A stretch of 41,667 nucleotides of DNA from a virus (IMGVR_UViG_2841729706_000003:1-41667); one strand, 5' to 3'; positions 18,419 through 28,210 are shown, numbered from the stretch's first letter. Numbers and translations are program-made. Notes: generated by a model not told the origin, from the sequence alone.

Positions 18419-19015
18419 TCAGAGCGCGGCCGCGCGCTCCGCCTTGAGGGTTTCGGCGTAGTCCTTGGGATCGATGCCAAGCATCTTCGCGACTTCGAGC
18501 TGTTCGGCCTGGAGGGAGACCTCGCCCTCCCTGGCCGGCGGCGTCGCAGGGACGACCGAGCCACCGGCGCCGAGCACCGGCATGGCACTGATCAGCGCCT
18601 CGGTATTGGCGGGGTCGGCCATGTGCATCGTCACGTAGCGGTCGCGCACCGGCTTGAGGCCGACGCGGCCAAGCTTGATCGCATCGTCGACAAAGGTCGC
18701 GGCCGCCTTGCGCTTGGTTTCTTCGGTAAGCGTGTTGAGCGTCGTGGTGACCGTTGCAAGCTCGGCCTGGAGAGCGATCACCGCATCTTCGGAACCGGAC
18801 GACCGCTTCAGGGCTTCGACGCCGATCAGGACCGCGGACGCTTCGGCATCGACCGCAAGCCCCACCGCCTTTGCGATGGGTGAGAGTGCGGCCTGCAGCG
18901 CGGTCGACACCTCGGCCTGGGCCGCATGCATGGAGGTCACGCGCTCGACGAGTTGATCTGCGGTCGTGCCGGCCGGCAGGCCGAGCGCGTTCAAGAGCTG
19001 TTGAAGCAGGTCCAT
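18419..19015 (-). CDS. Nested in-frame scaffolding protein (Mu gpZ-like)
   Basis: Internal ATG with strong SD (CAGGAGAACACA-ATG) right after the protease domain; helical, Ala-rich product. Mu Z is made the same way. Confidence 0.7.
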   Translation of the reverse strand: MDLLQQLLNALGLPAGTTADQLVERVTSMHAAQAEVSTALQAALSPIAKAVGLAVDAEASAVLIGVEALKRSSGSEDAVIALQAELATVTTTLNTLTEETKRKAAATFVDDAIKLGRVGLKPVRDRYVTMHMADPANTEALISAMPVLGAGGSVVPATPPAREGEVSLQAEQLEVAKMLGIDPKDYAETLKAERAAAL

Positions 19016-19519
19016 TGTGTTCTCCTGGTGAAGCGCGGTCAGGCCGCGAAGATTGGGGCGGTTGACGAGCGAGGCGCGCAGGATGGCGGTGATCTCGCCC
19101 GACTTCTGATGCTGAATGACCGGAGACAGCCCGCGATAGGCGCGTCCGGCCACGAGACGTCGGCCGTGCGCGGTCCACTCGACGCGGCCCCATATGCCGT
19201 CCTGGCGATGCTGAAGCTCGACGATCCAACCACGCGCCGGCGCCGGTTCGCCGCGCGGGGCGGCAAGGTCGGTCGCGTGGTTCTCATCGATCGGCAGCCG
19301 GTCCCCGCCGTCGAGGCGGCTGTTGCGGATCAGCGATTGCGGATCGGCCACGCGGTAAGGCCCGCGGTTGTCCCCGGTGCGAATTTCACCTGCCGGTAGC
19401 AGATGAACCCATTCCGGCACGGCCGATCCTTCGGCCGGCAGGTCCAGTGCGGCGCAAAGCGCTACGGCGTCGACCGAAGCGGCGTTGAGGGAAACGAAGC
19501 GAGTGCGGTTGCCAAACAT
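18419..19519 (-). CDS. Mu gpI-like prohead protease (alternative GTG start at 19528)
   Basis: PEWVHLLPAG, LPIDENHAT, PARGWI..L..R.DGIWG.VEWT, YRGLSPV, ASLVNRPNL. Confidence 0.94.
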   Translation of the reverse strand: MFGNRTRFVSLNAASVDAVALCAALDLPAEGSAVPEWVHLLPAGEIRTGDNRGPYRVADPQSLIRNSRLDGGDRLPIDENHATDLAAPRGEPAPARGWIVELQHRQDGIWGRVEWTAHGRRLVAGRAYRGLSPVIQHQKSGEITAILRASLVNRPNLRGLTALHQENTMDLLQQLLNALGLPAGTTADQLVERVTSMHAAQAEVSTALQAALSPIAKAVGLAVDAEASAVLIGVEALKRSSGSEDAVIALQAELATVTTTLNTLTEETKRKAAATFVDDAIKLGRVGLKPVRDRYVTMHMADPANTEALISAMPVLGAGGSVVPATPPAREGEVSLQAEQLEVAKMLGIDPKDYAETLKAERAAAL

Positions 19520-19526
19520 GGCCCGC

Positions 19527-19572
19527 ACATTCGCCGGTCGGCTGTCGGCAAAACAGCCACAAGGTGTTGCGG
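19527..19572 (-). promoter_or_regulatory. Candidate Mor/C-activated late promoter for the head operon
   Basis: AAACAGCCACAAGGTGTTGCGG (19551-19572) matches 32440-32461 at 19/22 positions; GAATGT -10-like hexamer 18 nt downstream on the minus strand. Confidence 0.6.
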
Positions 19573-19741
19573 GGGGATGCCGGCAGTTAGTGAGAATGTG
19601 CGGTCCAATGGCGATTGGAGCCCGACCGGTGACGCAGCGGAGAGAAAGCTGTCACGATAGGCATTAACGGTCAATCGCAATCCCTTGCCTGCACAGACGA
19701 CTCAGGAGCACATTCAGTTTCAGGGATAGGGGGAGGCTCAA

Positions 19742-20773
19742 ATGAACGACGATCCAGATTCGAAACCGGCACCAATCATCGGCCAGGTTACCGATTTGCT
19801 TGGTGCCGGAGCGGTAGCAAGCCGTTTCCTGACCATGGTGGAACGGGGCATAGGGCCATTGCTCGGGCCTCTGGCCGATCGCTGGAAGAACAAGCACATC
19901 CGCGCCGATGCAGACCGATTTTTCTCCGATATGAATTCGAAAGGACTTGCTCCCACATCGGCAGAGCTCACGATCGACGGCCGGGCAAACCTTCGCGTCA
20001 GCTTCGAAACCGTCCGGCAACAGGAAAACCGGGAAGCGATCGCTGTTGAAGGGCTCATCGAGGCCGAACGCATAGCTGGCGAATTGCCTCCGCCAAGCGA
20101 TCCCCTGCCGGACATCGAAGCTGAATGGATCGATCACTTCTGGGATCTGGCCGGGCGTGTCAGTTCCGAAGGGCGGCAAGCGCTATGGGGTCGAATTCTG
20201 GCACGTTCGGCAGCGGGTCGCTTCACGAGCGCTCGCGCGTTGACACTACTTTCCACTTTGAGTGGCGAGGAGGCACGACAGCTTGAAAGATTGGCCCAAT
20301 TTACCTGCCGGTTCGAGATTGATGAAGTCGTCACAGGCTTTGGGCTGTTCCGGCGAATCCCTTCACCTCTCCAGGATTCGGACCGGGCAATTCTAGAAGA
20401 GGCCAACGCCCGTCTATTTGAGAAAATGCAGCCGTTGTCGCAACGTCTCTTTGGGTCGATCGGTATTTTCGTTGAGGACGGCTTTGCGTTCAGTTTCCAG
20501 CAGAGGCCTAGGGGCGACGTCATCAGATTGGCTCTTGCGGGACGTTCATTCCGGCTGCACGGTCGGAGCCGACTAATCAGTCCATTACCTGGCGATACAC
20601 ATGGGTTCGTCGGTTTCGGCAGCGGCGTTGAAATATCCCCGATAGGTGCGGAGATATTCGAACTCATTCGAATCGAACCGAACCACGAATGGTTGCGTAT
20701 TCTTGCTGGAGCGTTCGCGGTACTTGGCTGGCAGCTTTGTGAAGCGGACGGGTCTCCAGTGGCTCCAGGTTAG
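19742..20773 (+). CDS. DUF2806/Abi-alpha-like protein (moron)
   Basis: RQQENREAI...EWIDHFWDLA..VS.EG.Q.LWGRILA...S.RAL.LL..LS..EA pattern. SD GGGGGAGG. Opposite strand to the phage genes. Confidence 0.65.
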   Translation: MNDDPDSKPAPIIGQVTDLLGAGAVASRFLTMVERGIGPLLGPLADRWKNKHIRADADRFFSDMNSKGLAPTSAELTIDGRANLRVSFETVRQQENREAIAVEGLIEAERIAGELPPPSDPLPDIEAEWIDHFWDLAGRVSSEGRQALWGRILARSAAGRFTSARALTLLSTLSGEEARQLERLAQFTCRFEIDEVVTGFGLFRRIPSPLQDSDRAILEEANARLFEKMQPLSQRLFGSIGIFVEDGFAFSFQQRPRGDVIRLALAGRSFRLHGRSRLISPLPGDTHGFVGFGSGVEISPIGAEIFELIRIEPNHEWLRILAGAFAVLGWQLCEADGSPVAPG

Positions 20774-20822
20774 GCGCGCATAGGATAATCTTGGACGCTG
20801 AGCGACGATATGAGGGGCGATC

Positions 20823-22208
20823 ATGGAAAGCAGGCGGCAGTTTGCAACCTCGGTGAAGGCAGTGGAGGCCTTCACCGAAGAGTGGGTCGAGACGATCCTT
20901 AAATTCAGATCACTGGAGGAAGCGGGGAAAACCGTCAGCCAAGCTCAGATCGAATTTCTCGACAAAACGGAATTTCTAAATCATTTTGACGGCAACAATT
21001 TTGTTAGTGCAAATGGCTACGACTATTTGCGCTCTGCGGCAGAACTCGTTCTTCACGAGGACAAACTGCAATTTCGGGTAAGGCGTGAAACGGCTCAGGC
21101 TGAACTCGAAAGAGCTTTCGCGACTGACGTCAAAAAACTCAAGAAAAGACGCCGGTTTTCGCCAAACGCCATTGTGAAGGAGGCGAAAGCGAAACTTCAC
21201 GCACTGCCCTTTTCAGACGGCTTATACGTCTTTCCTGCCATATTTGCACCGAATGCGATTGAGCACTCCTTCCTATGCGGTCCAATAGAAATTGTCCCTA
21301 AGGCTCGATTCTTGGCAGAGAACAAAGCCGCGATCGAGAACATGAAGAAGGAGGAATCGAAAGGTAAGTGGCCGAGTTTGGCCGAGCGATGGGAACAATA
21401 TATCGGTCGATACGATCATTTTGTGACCGTTCACATGGATGGCTTCGAAAGCGAGAGGGCATGGGTGGTTGCACGCGAGAGCGCAGAATTCCTGCTGAAT
21501 CTCGTTCGCATGACATTCACCTTTCAAGTGACGGAAAGGATTAAGCTAGCGGGCGGATTTATTTGGGATGAATCAAGCACATTTCTCATGATTTCGCCGA
21601 GTGGTGGCATCGGTCTTTCCTCACAGGACGGCCCTTGGGGATCGCATCTCGATAATGATTGGACTTGTGAGGTGGATCGACAACTGGGTGCGTCTCGCGG
21701 TTACCTTTCAAGTCTGGCAGCTTTGCTTACCAGCGGGAAATATCCGACTTCGCCAATCCTTGAAAGATTGCGCTATGCCAATCAACTAATCTCCGAAGCC
21801 TATTGCGAACCTCATGATCACATCCGCCTTGTGCGCATAGTATCCGCATTGGAAGCGCTTGCTTTGGTCGATGGGAACGAGAAGGCGCGCCCTGTGGCGG
21901 TGCGTTGCGCTTGCGCCGGCGGTTGGTCGGACACCGCACACGCCATGCGAATCTTTGAAGCCGTAAGCCAAGCCTATCACTGGCGGAACGCAATTGTTCA
22001 CGGTGATCCATCTCCACCCGAAGCAATCAAAGAGGCTTTTCTGCGCCTGGAGCAGTTTTTGGTTCACATCTACGAGGGGTTTGTAGTTCTTTTTGGCGGT
22101 ATCTGGAATGCCAAGAAACCCGAAACAATTCGCGACCTCCGTCGAGAAGTACGAGAAAGGATAGATCTTTTTTTCTGGTCCCCCGAGTTGGCAACCTCGG
22201 ACGGGTAA
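20823..22208 (+). CDS. HEPN-domain protein (ApeA-like architecture), putative RNase
   Basis: C-terminal RLRYA...IVSALEAL...YHWRNAIVHG with R-x4-H at 21984-22001. SD GAGGGG. Low GC (21/60 at 20941-21000). Confidence 0.8.
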   Translation: MESRRQFATSVKAVEAFTEEWVETILKFRSLEEAGKTVSQAQIEFLDKTEFLNHFDGNNFVSANGYDYLRSAAELVLHEDKLQFRVRRETAQAELERAFATDVKKLKKRRRFSPNAIVKEAKAKLHALPFSDGLYVFPAIFAPNAIEHSFLCGPIEIVPKARFLAENKAAIENMKKEESKGKWPSLAERWEQYIGRYDHFVTVHMDGFESERAWVVARESAEFLLNLVRMTFTFQVTERIKLAGGFIWDESSTFLMISPSGGIGLSSQDGPWGSHLDNDWTCEVDRQLGASRGYLSSLAALLTSGKYPTSPILERLRYANQLISEAYCEPHDHIRLVRIVSALEALALVDGNEKARPVAVRCACAGGWSDTAHAMRIFEAVSQAYHWRNAIVHGDPSPPEAIKEAFLRLEQFLVHIYEGFVVLFGGIWNAKKPETIRDLRREVRERIDLFFWSPELATSDG

Positions 22209-22244
22209 ATCCTATTTTTGACCGGACGCCACTAGGTGGGATTG

Positions 22245-24431
22245 ATGGAAGAAATTTACAAATTCAGTGATGACATGCCCGGTCGGAATGCCTTCCGGGA
22301 CGACAAATTGGGATTTCGCCCGTTCGCGTCACGGCTGGCTAAAGTTCTCTTGTCGATGGATGCGCCGAACGGTTATGTCATTGGCCTGCACGGAGTTTGG
22401 GGCAGCGGCAAGTCCACCGCGCTGAATTTCGTTCGTCAGCATGTCGAAAAGCACAACCAGGAGATCGAGCGGCCCGAAGAGCAGGTGGTGCTGATCGAGT
22501 TTCAGCCCTGGCTGATATCAGGTCATCAGGATTTAATCGGTGCGTTCTTCAAGGTCCTGTCAGAACGCCTGCCTGTGCTATCGGAGCAACCTAGCAACCT
22601 ACTTGGCAAGCTTCAGAGTGTCGGGAAAAAGGCCGGTGATCCTATTATCGACGCGGCGGCGGCCATCGGAGCACTTTTTGATCCAACTGCCGGGATTGGT
22701 TCGAAAGCTGTTGCAACTGTCGCGAAGAGCACTTTGAAGGACCGGCTGGATAGATGGCAGGCGATTCCTTCTCTGCAGTCAAGCTATCAAACGCTGGTGG
22801 TCAAGCTTGCCCAGCAGAAGCGCAGAATAGTCGTCTTTATTGACGACGTCGACCGGCTAAGCCAGGACGAAATCCGCAACATGATGCAGCTTGTGAAGTC
22901 CGTCGGCCGCTTGCCGTATGTTACCTACGTTCTTGCCTATGATCGACGCATCGTTTGGGCCGCGCTGGATCGCGAAGATTCCACTCATGAAGGGCCGCGG
23001 TTTGCAGAAAAAATCATTCAGCATGAATTGGAACTTCCGCGCCCGACGCAAAATGCGCTTCTCAGAGTGTTCGATAGTGCGGCCAGGGACTTCCTGGACG
23101 GCATCGAGTCAAACGAACGTCTGCATCGCATAGTTCTTCATGGGCTCTACAATTGGATCGCAACGCCTCGCGACGCGATACGGCTCGCGAACGCGATTAA
23201 GTTCTCCTGGGGTGCCATTCGCGGCGAGATTGATCCCCACGACCTCCTCGCGATGGAGGGGCTGCGTGTGTTCGACTACGACACTTTTCAGTGGTTGAGA
23301 AAGAACCGCGGTTTTCTGATAGGCGATGACCTTACGATGCTCAATGATGACGAGCGCAAGAAAATAGCCTCGAAGTTGCGAACGCAACTCACTGAGAATG
23401 ACAAGAATTACGTAATTGAACTTCTGGCGAACTTGTTTCCCGGACGCGAAAAAGAGCTCCGTGGTGGCCTTCAACATCATGGGGAGCCATATTATTCCAT
23501 AGTGAAACGTGGCGGCGTGGGAGCGGCACAAGGCTACGACGCCTACTTCAGTCTATTTCCACCGGAGGGGGAAATCTCGAAATCAGCCGCTGATAGCCTG
23601 GCCTCCCGTCTCGACGATCGTGAATACATCGAGCAAATGATTGTCGAGACGTTTGGCAATGCCGACCGCAAAGGCGAGCCGCTTGTCGGAAGTTTTCTGG
23701 CACAGCTACACTATAGGATGCTTGGCAATTCCAATATCAAGCCGACAACGCAGTTGCTTGCGGCTCTGATGGCAACTGGTGATAAGATTGTTTCAATCGA
23801 GTGGACGGGCCGCTGGTTTGCCGCTCCGGCATATATCGGGTTGTCCGGCTTATTGAGGGAGATGGTCAAGCGTTGGGGGCAGGAAATGGCGCTTCAAGAG
23901 TTTTGCACTGTGGCCAAGGACGGCTCACCCCTGATGTCCTCTTTCTTGCTCGCACAGGTATCGCCGAGCTTGGCTTCTCAGGGCGCCGATCGCGATGGAC
24001 TTCTGACGGAGGACCAAGCCAATGAGCTGGCGGCAGTAGTTCAGGAACGCATCAGAGATGCAATTGGCAAGAAAGCCTTGCACACTTTGCCCGATCTTTG
24101 GCCGGTTTTTCAAGTGTGGAGGCAAGTGGCTCAATCGGATGAAATTAAGAATTGGGTTTCAGAAACCCTCAGCAACCATCCCAGCTTACTGGCCAAATTG
24201 CCCATCTTCAGAACAAGAAGTGCGAGCGGTGATGGGGTTGACTACTCGCTAGGTTCGAAACCCGATCCGAGCTTATTTCAGATGGAGGACCTCGTGAGCG
24301 CTGCCAACGAGCTCGTCGCCAATGAGGAAACGGACAAAGTCACTCGCGCTAAAGCCGAAGCCATCCTAAGGGGCGTCAGAGATGGCATTCCTGACTATGC
24401 TACGGATGGAGTCGCAGATGACGACCAATAA
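22245..24431 (+). CDS. KAP-family P-loop NTPase with a long C-terminal region (alternative GTG start at 22236)
   Basis: DDKLGFRPFA, YVIGLHGVWGSGKST (Walker A), IEFQPW, VFIDDVDRL (Walker B), YVLAYDR, FAEKII, TPRDAIRLAN. Confidence 0.92.
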   Translation: MEEIYKFSDDMPGRNAFRDDKLGFRPFASRLAKVLLSMDAPNGYVIGLHGVWGSGKSTALNFVRQHVEKHNQEIERPEEQVVLIEFQPWLISGHQDLIGAFFKVLSERLPVLSEQPSNLLGKLQSVGKKAGDPIIDAAAAIGALFDPTAGIGSKAVATVAKSTLKDRLDRWQAIPSLQSSYQTLVVKLAQQKRRIVVFIDDVDRLSQDEIRNMMQLVKSVGRLPYVTYVLAYDRRIVWAALDREDSTHEGPRFAEKIIQHELELPRPTQNALLRVFDSAARDFLDGIESNERLHRIVLHGLYNWIATPRDAIRLANAIKFSWGAIRGEIDPHDLLAMEGLRVFDYDTFQWLRKNRGFLIGDDLTMLNDDERKKIASKLRTQLTENDKNYVIELLANLFPGREKELRGGLQHHGEPYYSIVKRGGVGAAQGYDAYFSLFPPEGEISKSAADSLASRLDDREYIEQMIVETFGNADRKGEPLVGSFLAQLHYRMLGNSNIKPTTQLLAALMATGDKIVSIEWTGRWFAAPAYIGLSGLLREMVKRWGQEMALQEFCTVAKDGSPLMSSFLLAQVSPSLASQGADRDGLLTEDQANELAAVVQERIRDAIGKKALHTLPDLWPVFQVWRQVAQSDEIKNWVSETLSNHPSLLAKLPIFRTRSASGDGVDYSLGSKPDPSLFQMEDLVSAANELVANEETDKVTRAKAEAILRGVRDGIPDYATDGVADDDQ

Positions 24432-24577
24432 GTACTGATAGTCTTTCTATTAAACGGGTTTTGAACGGGTCAGGGCAGCCGGCAAGGCATTTCGTCGACA
24501 CATGGCGCGGACAAGCAGCGCTGAGGTGCCCCAGGGCCACTTTTGGCAAAACTGCAATCTCAGCGTAGGATGGCGCC

Positions 24578-24760
24578 ATGGGATGGCGGGCTGACCTCGC
24601 ATATGACAAGGCCGAACGGGAAGAATGGCGCCGCTTCATGCGGGCGCAGCCTGTCTGGCGGCGGCTAAATATCTACGTCTGGCAGTTTCTGTTCCTGGTC
24701 GCCGTTGCTGTGATCCTTGCCGGCCCGTTCGTCTTCTCCATCATCGGCTCCCCCTCCTGA
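24578..24760 (+). CDS. Small single-TM membrane protein (60 aa)
   Basis: Charged N-terminus, then IYVWQFLFLVAVAVILAGPFVFSII. AGGA upstream. Confidence 0.55.
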   Translation: MGWRADLAYDKAEREEWRRFMRAQPVWRRLNIYVWQFLFLVAVAVILAGPFVFSIIGSPS

Positions 24761-24929
24761 TCGACCGCAAGCGATCGGGGCTCGATCAGTATGAGGCCAA
24801 GGTCCAACTATCGCCGCCGTGGCGAAATGTTATCGATCGACGGATTGGATGGGGCGGTCGCGCCTATCCCCAGTTGGCGCTGCCAGTTGCTAGACCGGCA
24901 ACTTTCTAGCCTTGAAATGGGAGACCATC

Positions 24930-25955
24930 ATGAGAAGCTTGTTTCGCTCTTGCGTCTTTGCAATTGTGCTTGCAGTCATGCCATGTGCCGAGGCGTTGGC
25001 TGACGACCCCATTCCCGTAACGCCAGACAACTTCGTCAGGGCCGAGTCGGACTTGTACTTCGGCAATATCGTCAAGGATGGCGGCCTCGGGAAATTTGTC
25101 CACCGCCGCGAGCCTGCGGAAATCGACAATCAAACGGTCATCCGGCTCAACCGCGACACATTATATTCCGCCGCCGTGTTCGATCTCGATGCTGGTTCGG
25201 TGACCGTAAAGATACCTGAAGTCGGCAAACGCTTCGTCTCAATGCAGGTCATCAACGAAGATCAGTATACGCCGGCCGTCTATTACGGCAAAGGAAACCA
25301 CACCTTTACCAGGAAAGAGATCGGTACGCGTTACGTTATCGTCGCCATCCGGACCCTGGTTGATCCGGCCGATGCCAAGGACCTGGAAAAGGTTCACGCC
25401 CTGCAAGATGCGATCAAGGTAGACCAGAAGAGCGCCGGCAAATTCGAAATCCCGAATTGGGATGCCGCCAGCCAGGCGAAGGTGCGTGAAGCACTCCTCG
25501 TCCTCGCCTCAACGCTGCCAGACGCGAACCGGATGTTCGGCACCAAAGCCCAGGTCGACCCTGTCCGGCGGTTGATCGGCGCGGCTTCGGCCTGGGGCGG
25601 AAATCCCGACAAGGAAGCGATCTATCTCAATGTCACGCCTTCCAAAAACGACGGCAAGACAATCTACAAGGTCACGGCGGCGAAGGTTCCTGTCGATGGC
25701 TTCTGGTCGGTCAGCCTCTACAATGCCAAGGGCTTCTACGAGAAAAACCCCTACGACGCCTATAGTTTCAACAGCATTACGGCTCAGAAGGCTGCCGATG
25801 GGTCTGTGACGATCCAGTTCGGAGGGTGCGACGGAAAAATCCCGAATTGCCTGCCTGTCATGGCGGACTGGAACTACATGGTCCGTCTCTACAGGCCTCA
25901 TCCCGAGGTCCTGAACGGCAAATGGAAGTTTCCAGAGGCGCAGGCAGTTAACTGA
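24930..25955 (+). CDS. Exported DUF1254/DUF1214 protein (alternative start 24912)
   Basis: Signal peptide MRSLFRSCVFAIVLAVMPCAEALA; VTPDNFVRAESD.YF, IRLNRDTLYS, PVDGFWSVSLYN, WNYMVRLYRP. Confidence 0.88.
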   Translation: MRSLFRSCVFAIVLAVMPCAEALADDPIPVTPDNFVRAESDLYFGNIVKDGGLGKFVHRREPAEIDNQTVIRLNRDTLYSAAVFDLDAGSVTVKIPEVGKRFVSMQVINEDQYTPAVYYGKGNHTFTRKEIGTRYVIVAIRTLVDPADAKDLEKVHALQDAIKVDQKSAGKFEIPNWDAASQAKVREALLVLASTLPDANRMFGTKAQVDPVRRLIGAASAWGGNPDKEAIYLNVTPSKNDGKTIYKVTAAKVPVDGFWSVSLYNAKGFYEKNPYDAYSFNSITAQKAADGSVTIQFGGCDGKIPNCLPVMADWNYMVRLYRPHPEVLNGKWKFPEAQAVN

Positions 25956-25965
25956 GAGGACCTCC

Positions 25966-26655
25966 TTAGCCGGCCAGCGCCAGCCCGACTATGCCTGGAT
26001 TAAATGCGAAGCCCGGGTCGATGCCTGCCGGCGTCTCGATCGGCCGGCCGCGGACGAATTTGATCAGCGTCCGCTCCGGGGGAGCCTCGTCCGAAACTTC
26101 CCAGCCGTAGCGCGCTAGATCTCGCTCCGAAAGCGACTGCACGTAGCAACGGCAGTTCCAGCCATTGGGCGGGTAATGCGTGATCCACCATGGATGATCG
26201 ACCGGCAGGATGACGCCGTGCCATTCGGCATGTTCATGCCGCGAATAGCGTTGCGTCAGCTCGGGATCGACATGGACGTAGCGCAGATAAGGCCGCACAC
26301 GCTTCAGCCGCTGGATTTGCTGCCAGCGGCCCGCCGCATAGGCCTGCGCCGTCATGATCCTGAAGGTAAGCCCAGCACGGTAGCCGTCCGATCCGTCTTC
26401 CCAGCCGTGGCGGCGTATGGCGGTGTCCCAGCCATCCAGGAAGCCGCCGAGGCCGGTACCGTCCTCGATCGCGCGCAGCACTTCGGCCAGGATATCGGTC
26501 AGCAGCGCGTCGGTCATGCCGGCGGAACGGTCGGTTGCTGCCTCATCAATCTGGCGGACGAGTTCGGCCCAGCGGTCGGCCGGCAGCTCCAGGCGACGGC
26601 GCAGGAAGGTGATAGCCTCCTCGAAGCGGACGTTCGAGACTTCAGGCGTCGCCAC
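25966..26655 (-). CDS. Mu gpF-like minor head protein
   Basis: RFEEAITFL, AQAYAAGRW.Q, PYLRYVH, RHEHAEWHG.ILPVDHPWW..HYPPNGWNCRCYV, IDPGFAFNPG. GTG at 26655 preferred over 26676. Confidence 0.92.
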   Translation of the reverse strand: MATPEVSNVRFEEAITFLRRRLELPADRWAELVRQIDEAATDRSAGMTDALLTDILAEVLRAIEDGTGLGGFLDGWDTAIRRHGWEDGSDGYRAGLTFRIMTAQAYAAGRWQQIQRLKRVRPYLRYVHVDPELTQRYSRHEHAEWHGVILPVDHPWWITHYPPNGWNCRCYVQSLSERDLARYGWEVSDEAPPERTLIKFVRGRPIETPAGIDPGFAFNPGIVGLALAG

Positions 26656-28210
26656 GATCCGCCTCCGCGGCCTCACCGGACAACCAGGCGAGCAGTAAGG
26701 CCTGTCGCATCGCGGCGGTCAGGTCAGCCGGGGCGGCGAAGGCGGTACCGGCATGCTCAAGCGCTGCATGTGCCTCCTCGAGACTGCCGGCGCCGGCAAC
26801 AAGGCCGCGGACCTTGGAGACCAGGCCATCGACCGCAGGGCCGGCAAGCTTCAGCGCGGCTTCGGCAAGCAGTTCTTCTGCCGTTCTGGACGCCGGCGCC
26901 TGTTCCTGATGAAGCGACTGCGTGCCGGCCGGCTGGCGATCCGGTTTCGACGGCGCGGGATTTGGCGCGCCAAGAACCTCGGCCCCGTCCTCCGGATCGG
27001 ACAGGCCGAACTTGTCGCGGATTTCTGACGCCTGGACGCGAAGGCCGAGCGGGACGAGCTGCGAAAGCGAGGTAGAAAGCTGCGCCAAATCCTCCTCGTC
27101 CGGCCGGGCGATGCGCAGGCGCGGATAGCGCTCCTGCGGCCCATATTCCAGGTCGATCCAGATGCGTATCAGGTCGCGATTGAGGATCGCCGAGAGTGCG
27201 CGGGCGTCGGCCCGCTCGATATCGGCCTGGACCTGTCTATGCTCCTGGCTGACGGCATGACCGCCCGATATCGCATCCGTTGTCGTCGTCTGGCCGAGGA
27301 CAGCTTTAGAGACCTGACGGTCGAGCCAGTCGACGCGCTTTTCGTACAGGTCCGACGAAGCGCCGACCGACTTCGATTCGATGAACTCGATGTTCATTCC
27401 TTCCGGCATGATCGCGGCGCAATCACCGGCAATGTTCGCCACCGCGCGATAGAGCGTGTCGCGATCGGCTTCGGTCGCGCCCGGTCCATATTTGCCGACC
27501 CGGATCGGCTGGCCGTAAGTCTGCGTGAAGATCGCCCAATCGCGATTTGAAAAGGCCTTGAACATCCATGCCCATGTCGCGGCGCGGGCAATGCCCGAGC
27601 GGATCGGCAGGCCGGATTTCGCCTTCAGCACGGCGCTGACGAACTTGCCGCCGGGCAGTTCCAGCTCCTCGCCATGTTCGCCAAGCATCAGGGGTGTCGT
27701 CAGGTCGCGCCGTGCCGGCCGGAACCAGCGCGGATCACGCCATTCGAGTCGGCCCGGCTGCCACTGGCCTTCAGACGTATCCCAGATGATCTCGGTGAAG
27801 GAATAGCCCTTTCCGACCGCGTCGAGGATGTCGAACAGCTCGTCGGCCAGTTCGTCACGTAGCAGCCACTCGCGCACCATATCGGCCTTGTCGACATCGG
27901 CCGAGTCGTCGCTGGCGGCTTCGACGCTCACCTCGATCTGGGCGACAGAGCGTTTGCGCGTACCGATGACGCCCAGATAATGGAGGTCGCGCTCCTCGAT
28001 CGTTTCCGCCAGTTCCAGGTAGCGCAGCGGATCGCCGGCGTCGGCCTCGCGCAGGATGGTCGCGAGCCGCGCGGGATTGAGCCCGTCGCCGGGATAGCCG
28101 CTGATCGGCGAACGCACGCCTGTAACGGTCGCCGCAGCAATCTCCTGCGTCAGCACCTTACGCTCGATCGGCCGGCCCCACTGGTCGAGGATTTTGGAAG
28201 TGATCGCCAT
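26642..28210 (-). CDS. Mu gp29-like portal protein (DUF935)
   Basis: GLNPARLA.IL..AD.G, E.D.HY..V..TRK..V, FTQTYGQP.RVGKY, SKAVLGQT.TTD...G.HA...EH. Confidence 0.95.
   Translation of the reverse strand: MAITSKILDQWGRPIERKVLTQEIAAATVTGVRSPISGYPGDGLNPARLATILREADAGDPLRYLELAETIEERDLHYLGVIGTRKRSVAQIEVSVEAASDDSADVDKADMVREWLLRDELADELFDILDAVGKGYSFTEIIWDTSEGQWQPGRLEWRDPRWFRPARRDLTTPLMLGEHGEELELPGGKFVSAVLKAKSGLPIRSGIARAATWAWMFKAFSNRDWAIFTQTYGQPIRVGKYGPGATEADRDTLYRAVANIAGDCAAIMPEGMNIEFIESKSVGASSDLYEKRVDWLDRQVSKAVLGQTTTTDAISGGHAVSQEHRQVQADIERADARALSAILNRDLIRIWIDLEYGPQERYPRLRIARPDEEDLAQLSTSLSQLVPLGLRVQASEIRDKFGLSDPEDGAEVLGAPNPAPSKPDRQPAGTQSLHQEQAPASRTAEELLAEAALKLAGPAVDGLVSKVRGLVAGAGSLEEAHAALEHAGTAFAAPADLTAAMRQALLLAWLSGEAAEADRGDA

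What the first reader, a model, noticed from the sequence alone, without database searches (positions are those of the whole stretch)
19742..24431. Candidate unnamed anti-phage cassette (DUF2806-like + HEPN RNase + KAP NTPase) in the Mu F/G-I accessory hotspot
Seen: three tightly spaced plus-strand genes (gaps of 49 and 36 nt), antisense to the phage and lower in GC (21/60 at 20941-21000 versus 44/60 at 18541-18600), placed between gpF and the protease promoter. Known: HEPN R-x4-H RNases (ApeA), KAP NTPases (PifA, QatA-type) and Abi-alpha-like proteins are each linked to abortive infection or exclusion. In D3112/JBD30-type Mu-like phages the slot just upstream of the protease gene is the accessory (anti-CRISPR) hotspot. 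Inference: this is a prophage-encoded defence operon; I do not recognise the three-gene combination as a named system.
Basis: partly seen in the sequence, partly recalled or inferred. Interest (0 to 1): 0.85.

Follow-up and report, generated by a model that had tools for sequence, protein, structure and literature searches.

The report
Stacked defence genes in Mu-prophage hotspot
A Mu-like prophage carries, in a swap-in slot between two head genes, three separate one-gene anti-phage candidates (a DUF2806/Abi-alpha-like protein, an ApeA-like HEPN RNase and a PifA-like KAP NTPase) rather than one new three-gene system, so it is a fairly ordinary prophage defence hotspot.

Summary
Three plus-strand genes (19742-20773, 20823-22208, 22245-24431; gaps 49 and 36 nt) lie antisense in a low-GC insert (54.6% against about 64%) between the Mu-like protease and gpF genes. 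The insert runs on to 25965 and also holds a secreted DUF1254/DUF1214 gene.

Identities:
- Gene 1 is DUF2806.
- Gene 2 belongs to a rare, unannotated ApeA-like HEPN family with an invariant R-x4-H motif.
- Gene 3 matches PADLOC's PifA model over its full length (E 3.6e-91), so part of the cassette is a named system.

The three-gene system reading is not supported.
- Relatives of each gene stand alone elsewhere: 13 other gene-2 loci, about 95 PifA-like loci and about 17 DUF2806 loci show no such partners.
- One related Mu-like phage carries DUF2806 alone in this same slot.
- Other relatives carry different cargo there: PD-Lambda-4, PD-Lambda-5, type IIG R-M, PDC-S49, even Cas13a with a CRISPR array.

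One thread stays open. All three prophages with this PifA-like clade also carry an ApeA-like HEPN gene in the slot, in varying order and from non-sister or different families.

The scan has noted this Mu slot before on other DNA. No function was tested here. Verdict: a new member of a known kind.

The parts
18419..19528 (-). Mu-like protease/scaffold gene (gpI), left border of the cargo slot
   Evidence: Pfam Mu-like_Pro PF10123, E 3.2e-51. It is 58-76% identical to the protease of sister phages L112-L114.
19529..19741 (.). 213-nt divergent intergenic region between the protease start and the gene 1 start. It presumably holds the promoters for both directions.
   Evidence: Read directly from the sequence; GGAGG lies 7 nt before the gene 1 ATG. 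The consensus scan found no sigma-70-like site here, so promoter function is inferred.
19742..20773 (+). Gene 1: DUF2806 (Abi-alpha-related) protein, 343 aa. Candidate one-gene abortive-infection protein.
   Evidence: Pfam DUF2806, 60.8 bits against a cut-off of 24.5. 788 representative clusters match at E<=1e-3. The AF2 model has pLDDT 85, and ESM Atlas matches DUF2806 and Abi_alpha clusters. A 43%-identical relative sits alone in the same slot in L131.
20823..22208 (+). Gene 2: ApeA-like HEPN protein, 461 aa, with a predicted RNase active site at R388/H393
   Evidence: R388, H393 and G394 are invariant in 25 homologues. In the AF2 model (pLDDT 87), residues 306-431 align with solved HEPN domains at Z 9.9-8.1. 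The whole chain matches 'Apea-like HEPN' clusters: ESM Atlas TM 0.73 over 420 residues, several AFDB hits. There is no Pfam or PADLOC family hit.
22245..24431 (+). Gene 3: PifA-like KAP-family P-loop NTPase, 728 aa from the ATG (731 aa from the GTG at 22236)
   Evidence: PADLOC PifA PDLC02361, E 3.6e-91, residues 21-700 against model positions 15-706 of 720. Pfam KAP_NTPase, E 3e-43. The Walker A residues G53-K59 and Walker B residues D203/D204 are invariant in 30 homologues. The gene on record is 728 aa.
24578..24760 (+). 60-codon ORF for a possible single-pass membrane peptide. Whether it is a real gene is unverified.
   Evidence: ORF list. A promoter-like site lies at 24543-24571. The Kyte-Doolittle maximum is 2.77. 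No Pfam hit.
24930..25955 (+). Gene 4: secreted DUF1254/DUF1214 protein. It is further cargo in the same low-GC insert and not an evident defence gene.
   Evidence: Pfam DUF1254 (E 6e-16) and DUF1214 (E 8e-15). It has a hydrophobic N-terminal leader and GGGAG before the ATG at 24930. No PADLOC hit.
25966..26676 (-). Mu gpF-like head morphogenesis gene, right border of the slot
   Evidence: Pfam Phage_Mu_F PF04233, E 1.9e-13. It is 75-78% identical in sister phages.

Best explanation
The 6.4-kb low-GC insert between gpI and gpF is the filled state of a cargo hotspot in this lineage of Mu-like prophages. It holds a stack of independent modules that were acquired separately and sit side by side on the antisense strand. 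They are probably transcribed together in the lysogen, when the late operon is silent, and protect it from other phages.

Inferred mode of action, by analogy in every case:
- Gene 1 (DUF2806/Abi-alpha-like) acts alone as an abortive-infection protein, like the DUF2806 cassette Belisama.
- Gene 2 acts alone as a HEPN ribonuclease that is activated by infection. It dimerises through its C-terminal HEPN domain and cuts RNA, probably tRNA anticodon loops as ApeA does.
- Gene 3 acts alone as an NTP-driven sensor/switch of the PifA type.
- Gene 4 (secreted DUF1254/DUF1214) is unrelated cargo.

What is shown here: gene identities, folds, motifs, the lack of conserved partners, and the hotspot. What is inferred: defence activity, triggers, targets and co-transcription.
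For: 1. No co-occurrence.
- Nine GTDB species genomes carry a gene 2 relative. None has a gene 1 or gene 3 relative within 10 kb. Four further gene 2 contexts are the same.
- About 95 PifA-like loci (80 metagenomic, 6 viral, 9 genomic) contain no gene 1-family or gene 2-family ORF. Sixty-three immediate neighbours of close PifA-like genes share no Pfam family.
- In a 400-genome class sample, 12 genomes have DUF2806 and 9 have a PifA-like gene. Only one genome has both, 277 kb apart.

2. Mix-and-match in the same slot.
- L131/L132 carry DUF2806 alone.
- L011 carries KAP followed by a gene 2-family HEPN, in the reverse order, plus an AriAB-like ATPase.
- L127 carries KAP, two small genes, then a different ApeA-like protein.

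3. The slot is a hotspot.
- Of 63 IMG/VR relatives that have both F and I, 50 have a slot of 1.35 kb or less and 13 have slots of 1.7-7.9 kb, 12 of them at lower GC than the rest of the contig.
- Their cargo includes PD-Lambda-4_A (E 6e-304), Cas13a (E 3e-251), PDC-S49, type IIG R-M and PD-Lambda-5 A+B.

4. One-gene precedents exist for each family.
- PADLOC treats PifA as a single gene, and other KAP NTPases defend alone (PMC13552941).
- ApeA is a stand-alone HEPN tRNase (bioRxiv 10.64898/2026.01.26.701840).
- Belisama is a one-gene DUF2806 integron cassette that causes lysis on infection (bioRxiv 10.1101/2024.07.02.601686).

5. The gene 2 copies of the window and of L011 are not sisters in the family tree. 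GC3 also differs between the genes: 0.57, 0.53, 0.60 and 0.71.
Against: - The three genes are tightly spaced on one strand, and no terminator-like site lies in either short gap. They are probably co-transcribed, which is also what a multi-gene system would look like.
- The PifA-like genes of the window, L011 and L127 form a 100/100 clade, and all three prophages also carry an ApeA-like HEPN gene in the slot. Some cooperation is therefore not excluded.
- Gene 3 is only 22.5% identical to the F-plasmid 'phage T7 exclusion protein', over residues 22-403.
- Gene 2 matches no ApeA sequence model.
- No member of these exact families has been tested for defence, and no expression data were available.
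Confidence: 0.7

Rival explanations
1. The HEPN protein (gene 2) and the PifA-like KAP NTPase (gene 3) work together. Either they form a sensor/effector pair, or they are two systems selected for synergy. DUF2806 would then be a separate neighbour.
For: - The two genes are adjacent on the same strand, 36 nt apart.
- L011, a sister Mu-like phage, has a KAP gene (53% identical) followed about 80 nt later by a gene 2-family HEPN gene.
- L127 has a KAP gene of the same clade, and in the same slot a 459-aa protein with a weak ApeA_NTD1 hit (E 1.7e-4) and an R-x4-H motif.
- So 3 of 3 prophages with this KAP clade carry an ApeA-like HEPN gene. The HEPN genes are not sisters, or belong to different families, which could mean the pairing arose more than once.
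Against: - Gene order and spacing are not conserved: HEPN-KAP in the window, KAP-HEPN in L011, and KAP with two genes before the HEPN gene in L127.
- None of 13 other gene 2-family loci has a KAP gene nearby.
- About 95 other PifA-like loci have no gene 2-family neighbour and no recurrent neighbour of any Pfam family.
- ApeA and other KAP NTPases each work alone in published tests.
- Three related prophages are too small a sample, and they are not independent of each other.
Confidence: 0.15
2. All three genes form one obligate three-component system of a new type.
For: The genes are tightly spaced and on one strand, and no terminator-like site lies in either short gap. No named three-gene system matches them.
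Against: - No other locus examined holds all three genes, or gene 1 together with either of the others.
- DUF2806 stands alone in the same slot in L131.
- The KAP clade occurs without DUF2806 in L011 and L127.
Confidence: 0.04
3. The cargo is not antiviral. The genes would serve the phage or the host in another way, for example as toxin-like addiction modules that stabilise the prophage, as counter-defence, or as host-fitness morons like the neighbouring secreted DUF1254/DUF1214 protein.
For: - Nothing here was tested for function.
- The same slot also carries a non-defence-looking secreted protein.
- From my own knowledge, in Pseudomonas Mu-like phages the corresponding region holds anti-CRISPR genes.
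- A paper cites the view that phage restriction may not be PifA's primary role (PMC13552941).
Against: - All three families have experimentally validated defence members or models.
- Sister phages fill the slot with recognised defence systems.
- The proteins are large and enzyme-like, unlike typical small anti-defence proteins.
Confidence: 0.1

Closest known systems
PifA of the F plasmid (PADLOC/DefenseFinder single-gene system 'PifA'; excludes T7, triggered by gp1.2 and gp10)
   Same: Gene 3 matches the PADLOC PifA model end to end (E 3.6e-91). It has a KAP-family P-loop domain with intact Walker A and B motifs, is of similar length, and has no conserved partner gene.
   Different: It is only 22.5% identical to the annotated F-type 'phage T7 exclusion protein', and only over residues 22-403. 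It is carried by a prophage in a host with about 64% GC, not by a plasmid. There is no pifC/pifB context. The trigger and any membrane effect are unknown, and no hydrophobic transmembrane segment is predicted.
ApeA (stand-alone HEPN anticodon tRNase, activated by deoxydinucleotides; bioRxiv 10.64898/2026.01.26.701840)
   Same: Gene 2 is a stand-alone gene. It has a helical N-terminal part, a mixed middle part and a C-terminal HEPN domain with an invariant R-x4-H motif. The whole-chain fold matches clusters named 'Apea-like HEPN domain-containing protein'. One family member carries that name in UniRef.
   Different: No Pfam (HEPN_Apea, ApeA_NTD1) or PADLOC model matches any of 25 family members. 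The protein is shorter (461 aa; the Ec2ApeA HEPN domain alone reaches residue 583). The family is small, 37 clusters in 5.8 billion proteins. The ligand pocket, oligomeric state and RNA target are unknown.
Belisama (DUF2806 single-gene integron cassette of Vibrio cholerae) and Abi-alpha; bioRxiv 10.1101/2024.07.02.601686
   Same: Gene 1 is a DUF2806 protein above Pfam's cut-off. Structure clusters link DUF2806 with Abi_alpha. Relatives occur as single genes, including alone in this same phage slot.
   Different: The best NCBIfam match (TIGR03899) is partial and far below its cut-off. The mechanism of the whole family is unknown.
Prophage defence hotspots (P2/P4 hotspots, Rousset et al. 2022, PMC9122126) and the accessory locus upstream of the protease gene in Pseudomonas Mu-like phages (own knowledge)
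   Same: Two conserved flanking genes bound a slot whose length ranges from 0.25 to 7.9 kb across the relatives examined. Its cargo is lower in GC, often antisense, and differs between sister phages. Much of that cargo is recognised defence systems.
   Different: This is another phage lineage, in hosts that appear to be alphaproteobacteria judging by the names of the relatives' records. Here the slot is bounded directly by F and I. The cargo seen is defence-type rather than anti-CRISPR.

Membership tests
PifA (single-gene defence system as modelled in PADLOC) | Full-length match to the PifA profile | tested here: met
   PDLC02361, E 3.6e-91, 304.8 bits, residues 21-700 against model positions 15-706 of 720. 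The L127 orthologue matches at E 3.6e-88.
PifA (single-gene defence system as modelled in PADLOC) | KAP-family P-loop NTPase domain with intact Walker A and Walker B motifs | tested here: met
   Pfam KAP_NTPase, 148.6 bits against a cut-off of 20. G53, G56, G58, K59, D203 and D204 are invariant in 30 homologues.
PifA (single-gene defence system as modelled in PADLOC) | Close kinship to the experimentally studied F-plasmid PifA | tested here: inconclusive
   tblastn gives 22.5% identity over residues 22-403 to genes annotated 'phage T7 exclusion protein', E 1e-15. The C-terminal half is not aligned by BLAST.
PifA (single-gene defence system as modelled in PADLOC) | Excludes phage on sensing specific phage proteins, with membrane leakage | not testable with these tools
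   This needs plating and physiology assays.
ApeA (stand-alone HEPN tRNase) | C-terminal HEPN domain with a conserved R-x4-H catalytic motif | tested here: met
   R388 and H393 are invariant in 25 sequences. Residues 306-431 align with YutE (Z 9.9, rmsd 3.8, 120 aligned), HepT 7ae2 (Z 8.7), 8xdj (Z 8.1) and 5yep (Z 7.5). These Z values are modest for a helical domain, so the motif carries much of the weight.
ApeA (stand-alone HEPN tRNase) | Match to the ApeA sequence models (Pfam HEPN_Apea, ApeA_NTD1; PADLOC ApeA) | tested here: not met
   PADLOC gives no ApeA hit at E<=0.1. Pfam gives no such hit at E<=10 for gene 2 or at E<=1 for any of 25 family members.
ApeA (stand-alone HEPN tRNase) | Whole-protein, three-part fold like ApeA-type proteins | tested here: met
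   ESM Atlas gives TM 0.73 over 420 residues to the cluster 'Apea-like HEPN domain-containing protein'. Several AFDB clusters of that name match at E 3e-6 to 3e-4. No solved ApeA chain appeared in the PDB searches, so there is no direct comparison with the published structures.
ApeA (stand-alone HEPN tRNase) | Ligand-activated oligomer that cleaves tRNA anticodon loops | not testable with these tools
   This is a biochemical property described in bioRxiv 10.64898/2026.01.26.701840.
DUF2806 / Abi-alpha-like one-gene defence (Belisama type) | DUF2806 domain above Pfam's gathering score | tested here: met
   60.8 bits against a cut-off of 24.5, profile positions 2-220 of 221. The whole-genome scan gives the same result.
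DUF2806 / Abi-alpha-like one-gene defence (Belisama type) | Occurs as a self-sufficient single gene | tested here: met
   It stands alone between housekeeping genes in L012. It stands alone in the F|I slot of L131/L132. Neither the gene 2 nor the gene 3 profile matched in any of about 17 other DUF2806 loci. One branch (L014/L015) has an unrelated 346-365-aa gene 11 nt upstream.
DUF2806 / Abi-alpha-like one-gene defence (Belisama type) | Sequence kinship to Belisama itself, and abortive lysis on infection | not tested
The phenotype needs experiments.
Multi-gene defence system (one functional unit) | Components co-occur, in conserved order, across unrelated genomes | tested here: not met
   The trio was found nowhere else. 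The gene 2 + gene 3 pair was found only in L011, in reversed order. Gene 1 was never found with gene 2 or gene 3.
Prophage defence hotspot | Variable cargo between conserved flanking genes, with sister phages carrying known defence systems there | tested here: met
   Slot lengths range from 379 to 7852 nt in 63 relatives. Cargo includes PD-Lambda-4, PD-Lambda-5, Cas13a, PDC-S49, type IIG R-M and an AriAB-like ATPase.

The most novel reading that the evidence does not exclude
This PifA-like KAP NTPase clade and ApeA-like HEPN ribonucleases cooperate. The KAP protein might sense infection and license or boost the HEPN RNase, or the two might be selected for synergy. That would explain why all three prophages that carry this KAP clade also carry an ApeA-like HEPN gene in the same slot, even though the HEPN genes are not sisters or belong to different families.
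Probability: 0.13. Interest if true: 0.6.

Novelty: new member of a known kind. Interest (0 to 1): 0.35.

Why it matters
The result maps a defence hotspot between gpF and gpI in a lineage of Mu-like prophages. Judging by the names of the relatives' records, the hosts are alphaproteobacteria, where prophage-borne immunity is little studied. It gives three clean single-gene candidates for testing.

The most useful candidate is gene 2. It belongs to a small, unannotated family with an ApeA-like fold that current Pfam and PADLOC models miss, so defence annotation would benefit from a model for it. Gene 3 extends the PifA-type family far from F plasmids.

The result also corrects an over-reading. 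Tight spacing in a hotspot is not evidence that the genes form one system.

Tried and rejected
- The look-up of sequencing runs listed no run and no RNA holder, so co-transcription could not be checked.
- Megablast of the slot against the phage collection found no match.
- Foldseek against the PDB gave nothing at E<=0.001 for either model. VIA-align gave no Z>=5 for gene 1, so I name no known fold for it and make no claim of a new fold.
- phmmer of gene 2 against PDB sequences gave no hit.
- IMG/VR scans with the gene 2 alignment and with gene 1 found no relatives. The gene 1 alignment was too diverse to scan with.
- hhalign of the L127 459-aa protein against the gene 2 family showed no relationship (probability 1%), so I treat it as a different ApeA-like family.
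- My first tree of gene 2 used a wrong reading frame for L011 and was discarded; one search is the valid tree.
- I considered that the cassette might include a Mu G gene or small minus-strand genes. I did not search the window itself for a G-like gene; in the relatives the G-like gene lies elsewhere.
Full report
**What is there**

The window is a Mu-like prophage read on the minus strand. The portal gene is at 26642-28210, gpF at 25966-26676 and the protease/scaffold gene gpI at 18419-19528 (Pfam). Between gpF and gpI lies a 6,437-nt insert (19529-25965) of 54.6% GC, in a phage of about 64% GC. GC3 is 0.53-0.71 in the insert genes and 0.77-0.80 in the phage genes.

All the insert's genes are on the plus strand, antisense to the late operon.
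- Gene 1 is at 19742-20773 (343 aa).
- Gene 2 is at 20823-22208 (461 aa).
- Gene 3 is at 22245-24431 (728 aa; an in-frame GTG lies at 22236).
- A 60-codon ORF for a single-helix membrane peptide is at 24578-24760.
- Gene 4 is at 24930-25955 and encodes a secreted DUF1254/DUF1214 protein.

Each gene start has a Shine-Dalgarno-like motif, and no terminator-like site lies in either short gap. A shared transcript is therefore plausible, but I could not test it because no sequencing run was listed.

**Gene identities**

Gene 1 is a DUF2806 protein (60.8 bits, cut-off 24.5). An exhaustive search found 788 representative clusters, mostly proteins of about 330 aa. An AlphaFold model built on 61 sequences (pLDDT 85) shows a long N-terminal helical hairpin and a C-terminal alpha/beta domain. 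It matched no solved structure. In the ESM Atlas it matches DUF2806 clusters and clusters that also carry Abi_alpha.

Gene 2 has no Pfam, NCBIfam, PHROG or significant PADLOC hit. Its family is small, 37 clusters among 5.8 billion proteins. R388, H393 and G394 are invariant across 25 members, which gives a textbook HEPN R-x4-H motif. The model (pLDDT 87) places this motif in a C-terminal four-helix domain. That domain aligns with solved HEPN proteins: YutE at Z 9.9, and the HepT toxins 7ae2, 8xdj and 5yep at Z 8.7-7.5. The whole chain matches predicted-structure clusters named 'Apea-like HEPN domain-containing protein' (TM 0.73 over 420 residues in ESM Atlas; several AFDB clusters). So gene 2 works like an ApeA-type protein by fold and motif. 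It is not a member by any current ApeA sequence model.

Gene 3 is a KAP-family P-loop NTPase (E 3e-43) that matches PADLOC's PifA profile end to end (E 3.6e-91). Its Walker A and B residues are invariant among 30 homologues. It is only 22.5% identical to the F-type 'phage T7 exclusion protein', and only over the N-terminal half. It belongs to the PifA-type family but is not a close relative of the studied protein.

**Is it one system?

For gene 2, the only nine relatives among 185,579 species genomes have no gene 1 or gene 3 relative within 10 kb. Four more contexts from assemblies agree.

For gene 3, about 95 loci (80 metagenomic, 6 viral, 9 genomic) hold no gene 1-family or gene 2-family ORF. 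Clustering of flanking ORFs shows no recurrent partner. Sixty-three immediate neighbours of close relatives share no Pfam family.

For gene 1, close relatives sit alone between housekeeping genes or behind an unrelated gene. In a 400-genome class sample, DUF2806 occurs in 12 genomes and a PifA-like gene in 9. Only one genome has both, 277 kb apart.

The trio was found nowhere else.

**The same slot in related phages**

- L131/L132 is a Mu-like contig whose I|F slot holds a 43%-identical DUF2806 gene and nothing else of size.
- L011 (portal 70% identical) holds a PifA-like gene (53% identical). About 80 nt later comes a gene 2-family HEPN gene, which is the reverse of the window's order. An AriAB/OLD-like ATPase sits on the other strand.
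- L127, a Nitratireductor prophage, holds a PifA-like gene, two small genes, and a 459-aa protein with a weak ApeA_NTD1 hit and an R-x4-H motif. That protein is unrelated to the gene 2 family by hhalign.
- Among 63 IMG/VR relatives with both F and I, the slot is 1.35 kb or less in 50 and 1.7-7.9 kb in 13, at lower GC than the rest of the contig in 12 of those 13. None carries any of the three families.
- Their cargo includes PD-Lambda-4_A (E 6e-304), a full-length Cas13a (E 3e-251) followed by a CRISPR array, PDC-S49, a type IIG restriction-modification enzyme, a PLD-type nuclease and PD-Lambda-5 A+B.

The slot is therefore a genuine defence hotspot. The three genes behave as interchangeable single-gene cargo.

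**The one loose thread**

The PifA-like genes of the window, L011 and L127 form a 100/100 clade. Each of these three prophages also carries an ApeA-like HEPN gene in the slot. The HEPN genes of the window and L011 are not sisters. L011's copy groups at 95/94 support with chromosomal stand-alone genes that lack any KAP neighbour. L127's HEPN gene belongs to another family.

This could reflect selection for the combination. It could equally reflect a resident KAP gene beside which common hotspot cargo comes and goes. Three related phages cannot decide the question. Variable order and spacing, the many stand-alone relatives, and published stand-alone activity of ApeA and of KAP NTPases all argue for independence. 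I give cooperation about 0.15.

**Mechanism: shown and inferred**

Shown here: identities, folds, catalytic-type motifs, absence of conserved partners, and the hotspot context.

Inferred by analogy:
- Gene 1 acts like Belisama, a one-gene DUF2806 cassette. Belisama is toxic when over-expressed and causes unrecoverable culture lysis at high multiplicity of infection (bioRxiv 10.1101/2024.07.02.601686).
- Gene 2 acts like ApeA. It would be a HEPN dimer or oligomer that is switched on during infection and cuts tRNA anticodon loops (bioRxiv 10.64898/2026.01.26.701840).
- Gene 3 acts as an NTP-dependent sensor/switch of the PifA/KAP type. In tested KAP proteins, the Walker motifs and the C-terminal region are both needed (PMC13552941).

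Antisense placement would let the lysogen express the cargo while the late operon is off.

**Verdict**

This is a stack of one-gene defence candidates in a prophage hotspot: a new member of a known kind. One component (gene 3) is already covered by a named model, and one (gene 2) belongs to a rare family missing from current annotation resources.

Earlier notes of this scan describe the same Mu slot holding other cargo on other DNA. They also raise the HEPN-KAP pair idea for this stretch. I tested the pair idea only by genomic context.

Noticed in passing
L136:13616-17697 (IMGVR_UViG_2889914905_000002): A related Mu-like viral contig carries, in the same F|I slot, a full-length Cas13a (PADLOC E 3e-251). 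It is followed by a CRISPR array of at least 6 repeats of 36 nt with a period of 65-66 nt. This looks like a phage-borne type VI-A CRISPR-Cas in a late-operon hotspot.
   Followed up: partly
window 24930-25955: A fourth plus-strand gene in the same low-GC insert encodes a secreted DUF1254/DUF1214 protein with an N-terminal leader. It has no defence-model hit and its GC3 (0.71) is higher than that of the three defence candidates. It is probably separate, non-defence cargo.
   Followed up: partly
window 24578-24760: A 60-codon ORF with one strongly hydrophobic helix lies 146 nt after gene 3 and directly behind a promoter-like site at 24543-24571. No family hit. Whether it is a real gene is unknown.
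   Followed up: no
L011:13770-15233 (minus strand): The sister phage's slot also holds a 487-aa ABC/OLD-type ATPase that matches PADLOC AriAB/AriA (PARIS) and PtuA/GajA models (E 5e-22 and weaker).
   Followed up: no
L131:2036-2494 (minus strand): The Mu-like contig that carries DUF2806 alone also has a gene with an Acb2_Tad1_hairpin Pfam hit inside its head-tail module. This is a family of signal-sponge counter-defence proteins. tblastn found no counterpart in the window.
   Followed up: partly
L014:8949-9989 and L015:442-1539: In one branch of close gene 1 relatives, the DUF2806 gene is preceded by a 346-365-aa gene of no known family, with a gap of only 11 nt. This may be a partner specific to that branch.
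   Followed up: no
L003:11299-12513 and L004:11284-12498: Two gene 2-family relatives are followed by an overlapping 404-aa gene with no Pfam or PADLOC hit. The other relatives lack it.
   Followed up: no
L134-L213 (63 IMG/VR Mu-like contigs): Most relatives have an F-to-I distance close to 1.2 kb, which suggests a common resident element or a longer gpF in the unfilled slot. I did not look at what it is.
   Followed up: no
L169:13135-17175 and L210:13368-17363 (minus strand): Two relatives carry antisense genes of 1331-1346 aa in the slot with no PADLOC hit at E<=1e-5. These are large unannotated hotspot cargo and would be worth a look.
   Followed up: no
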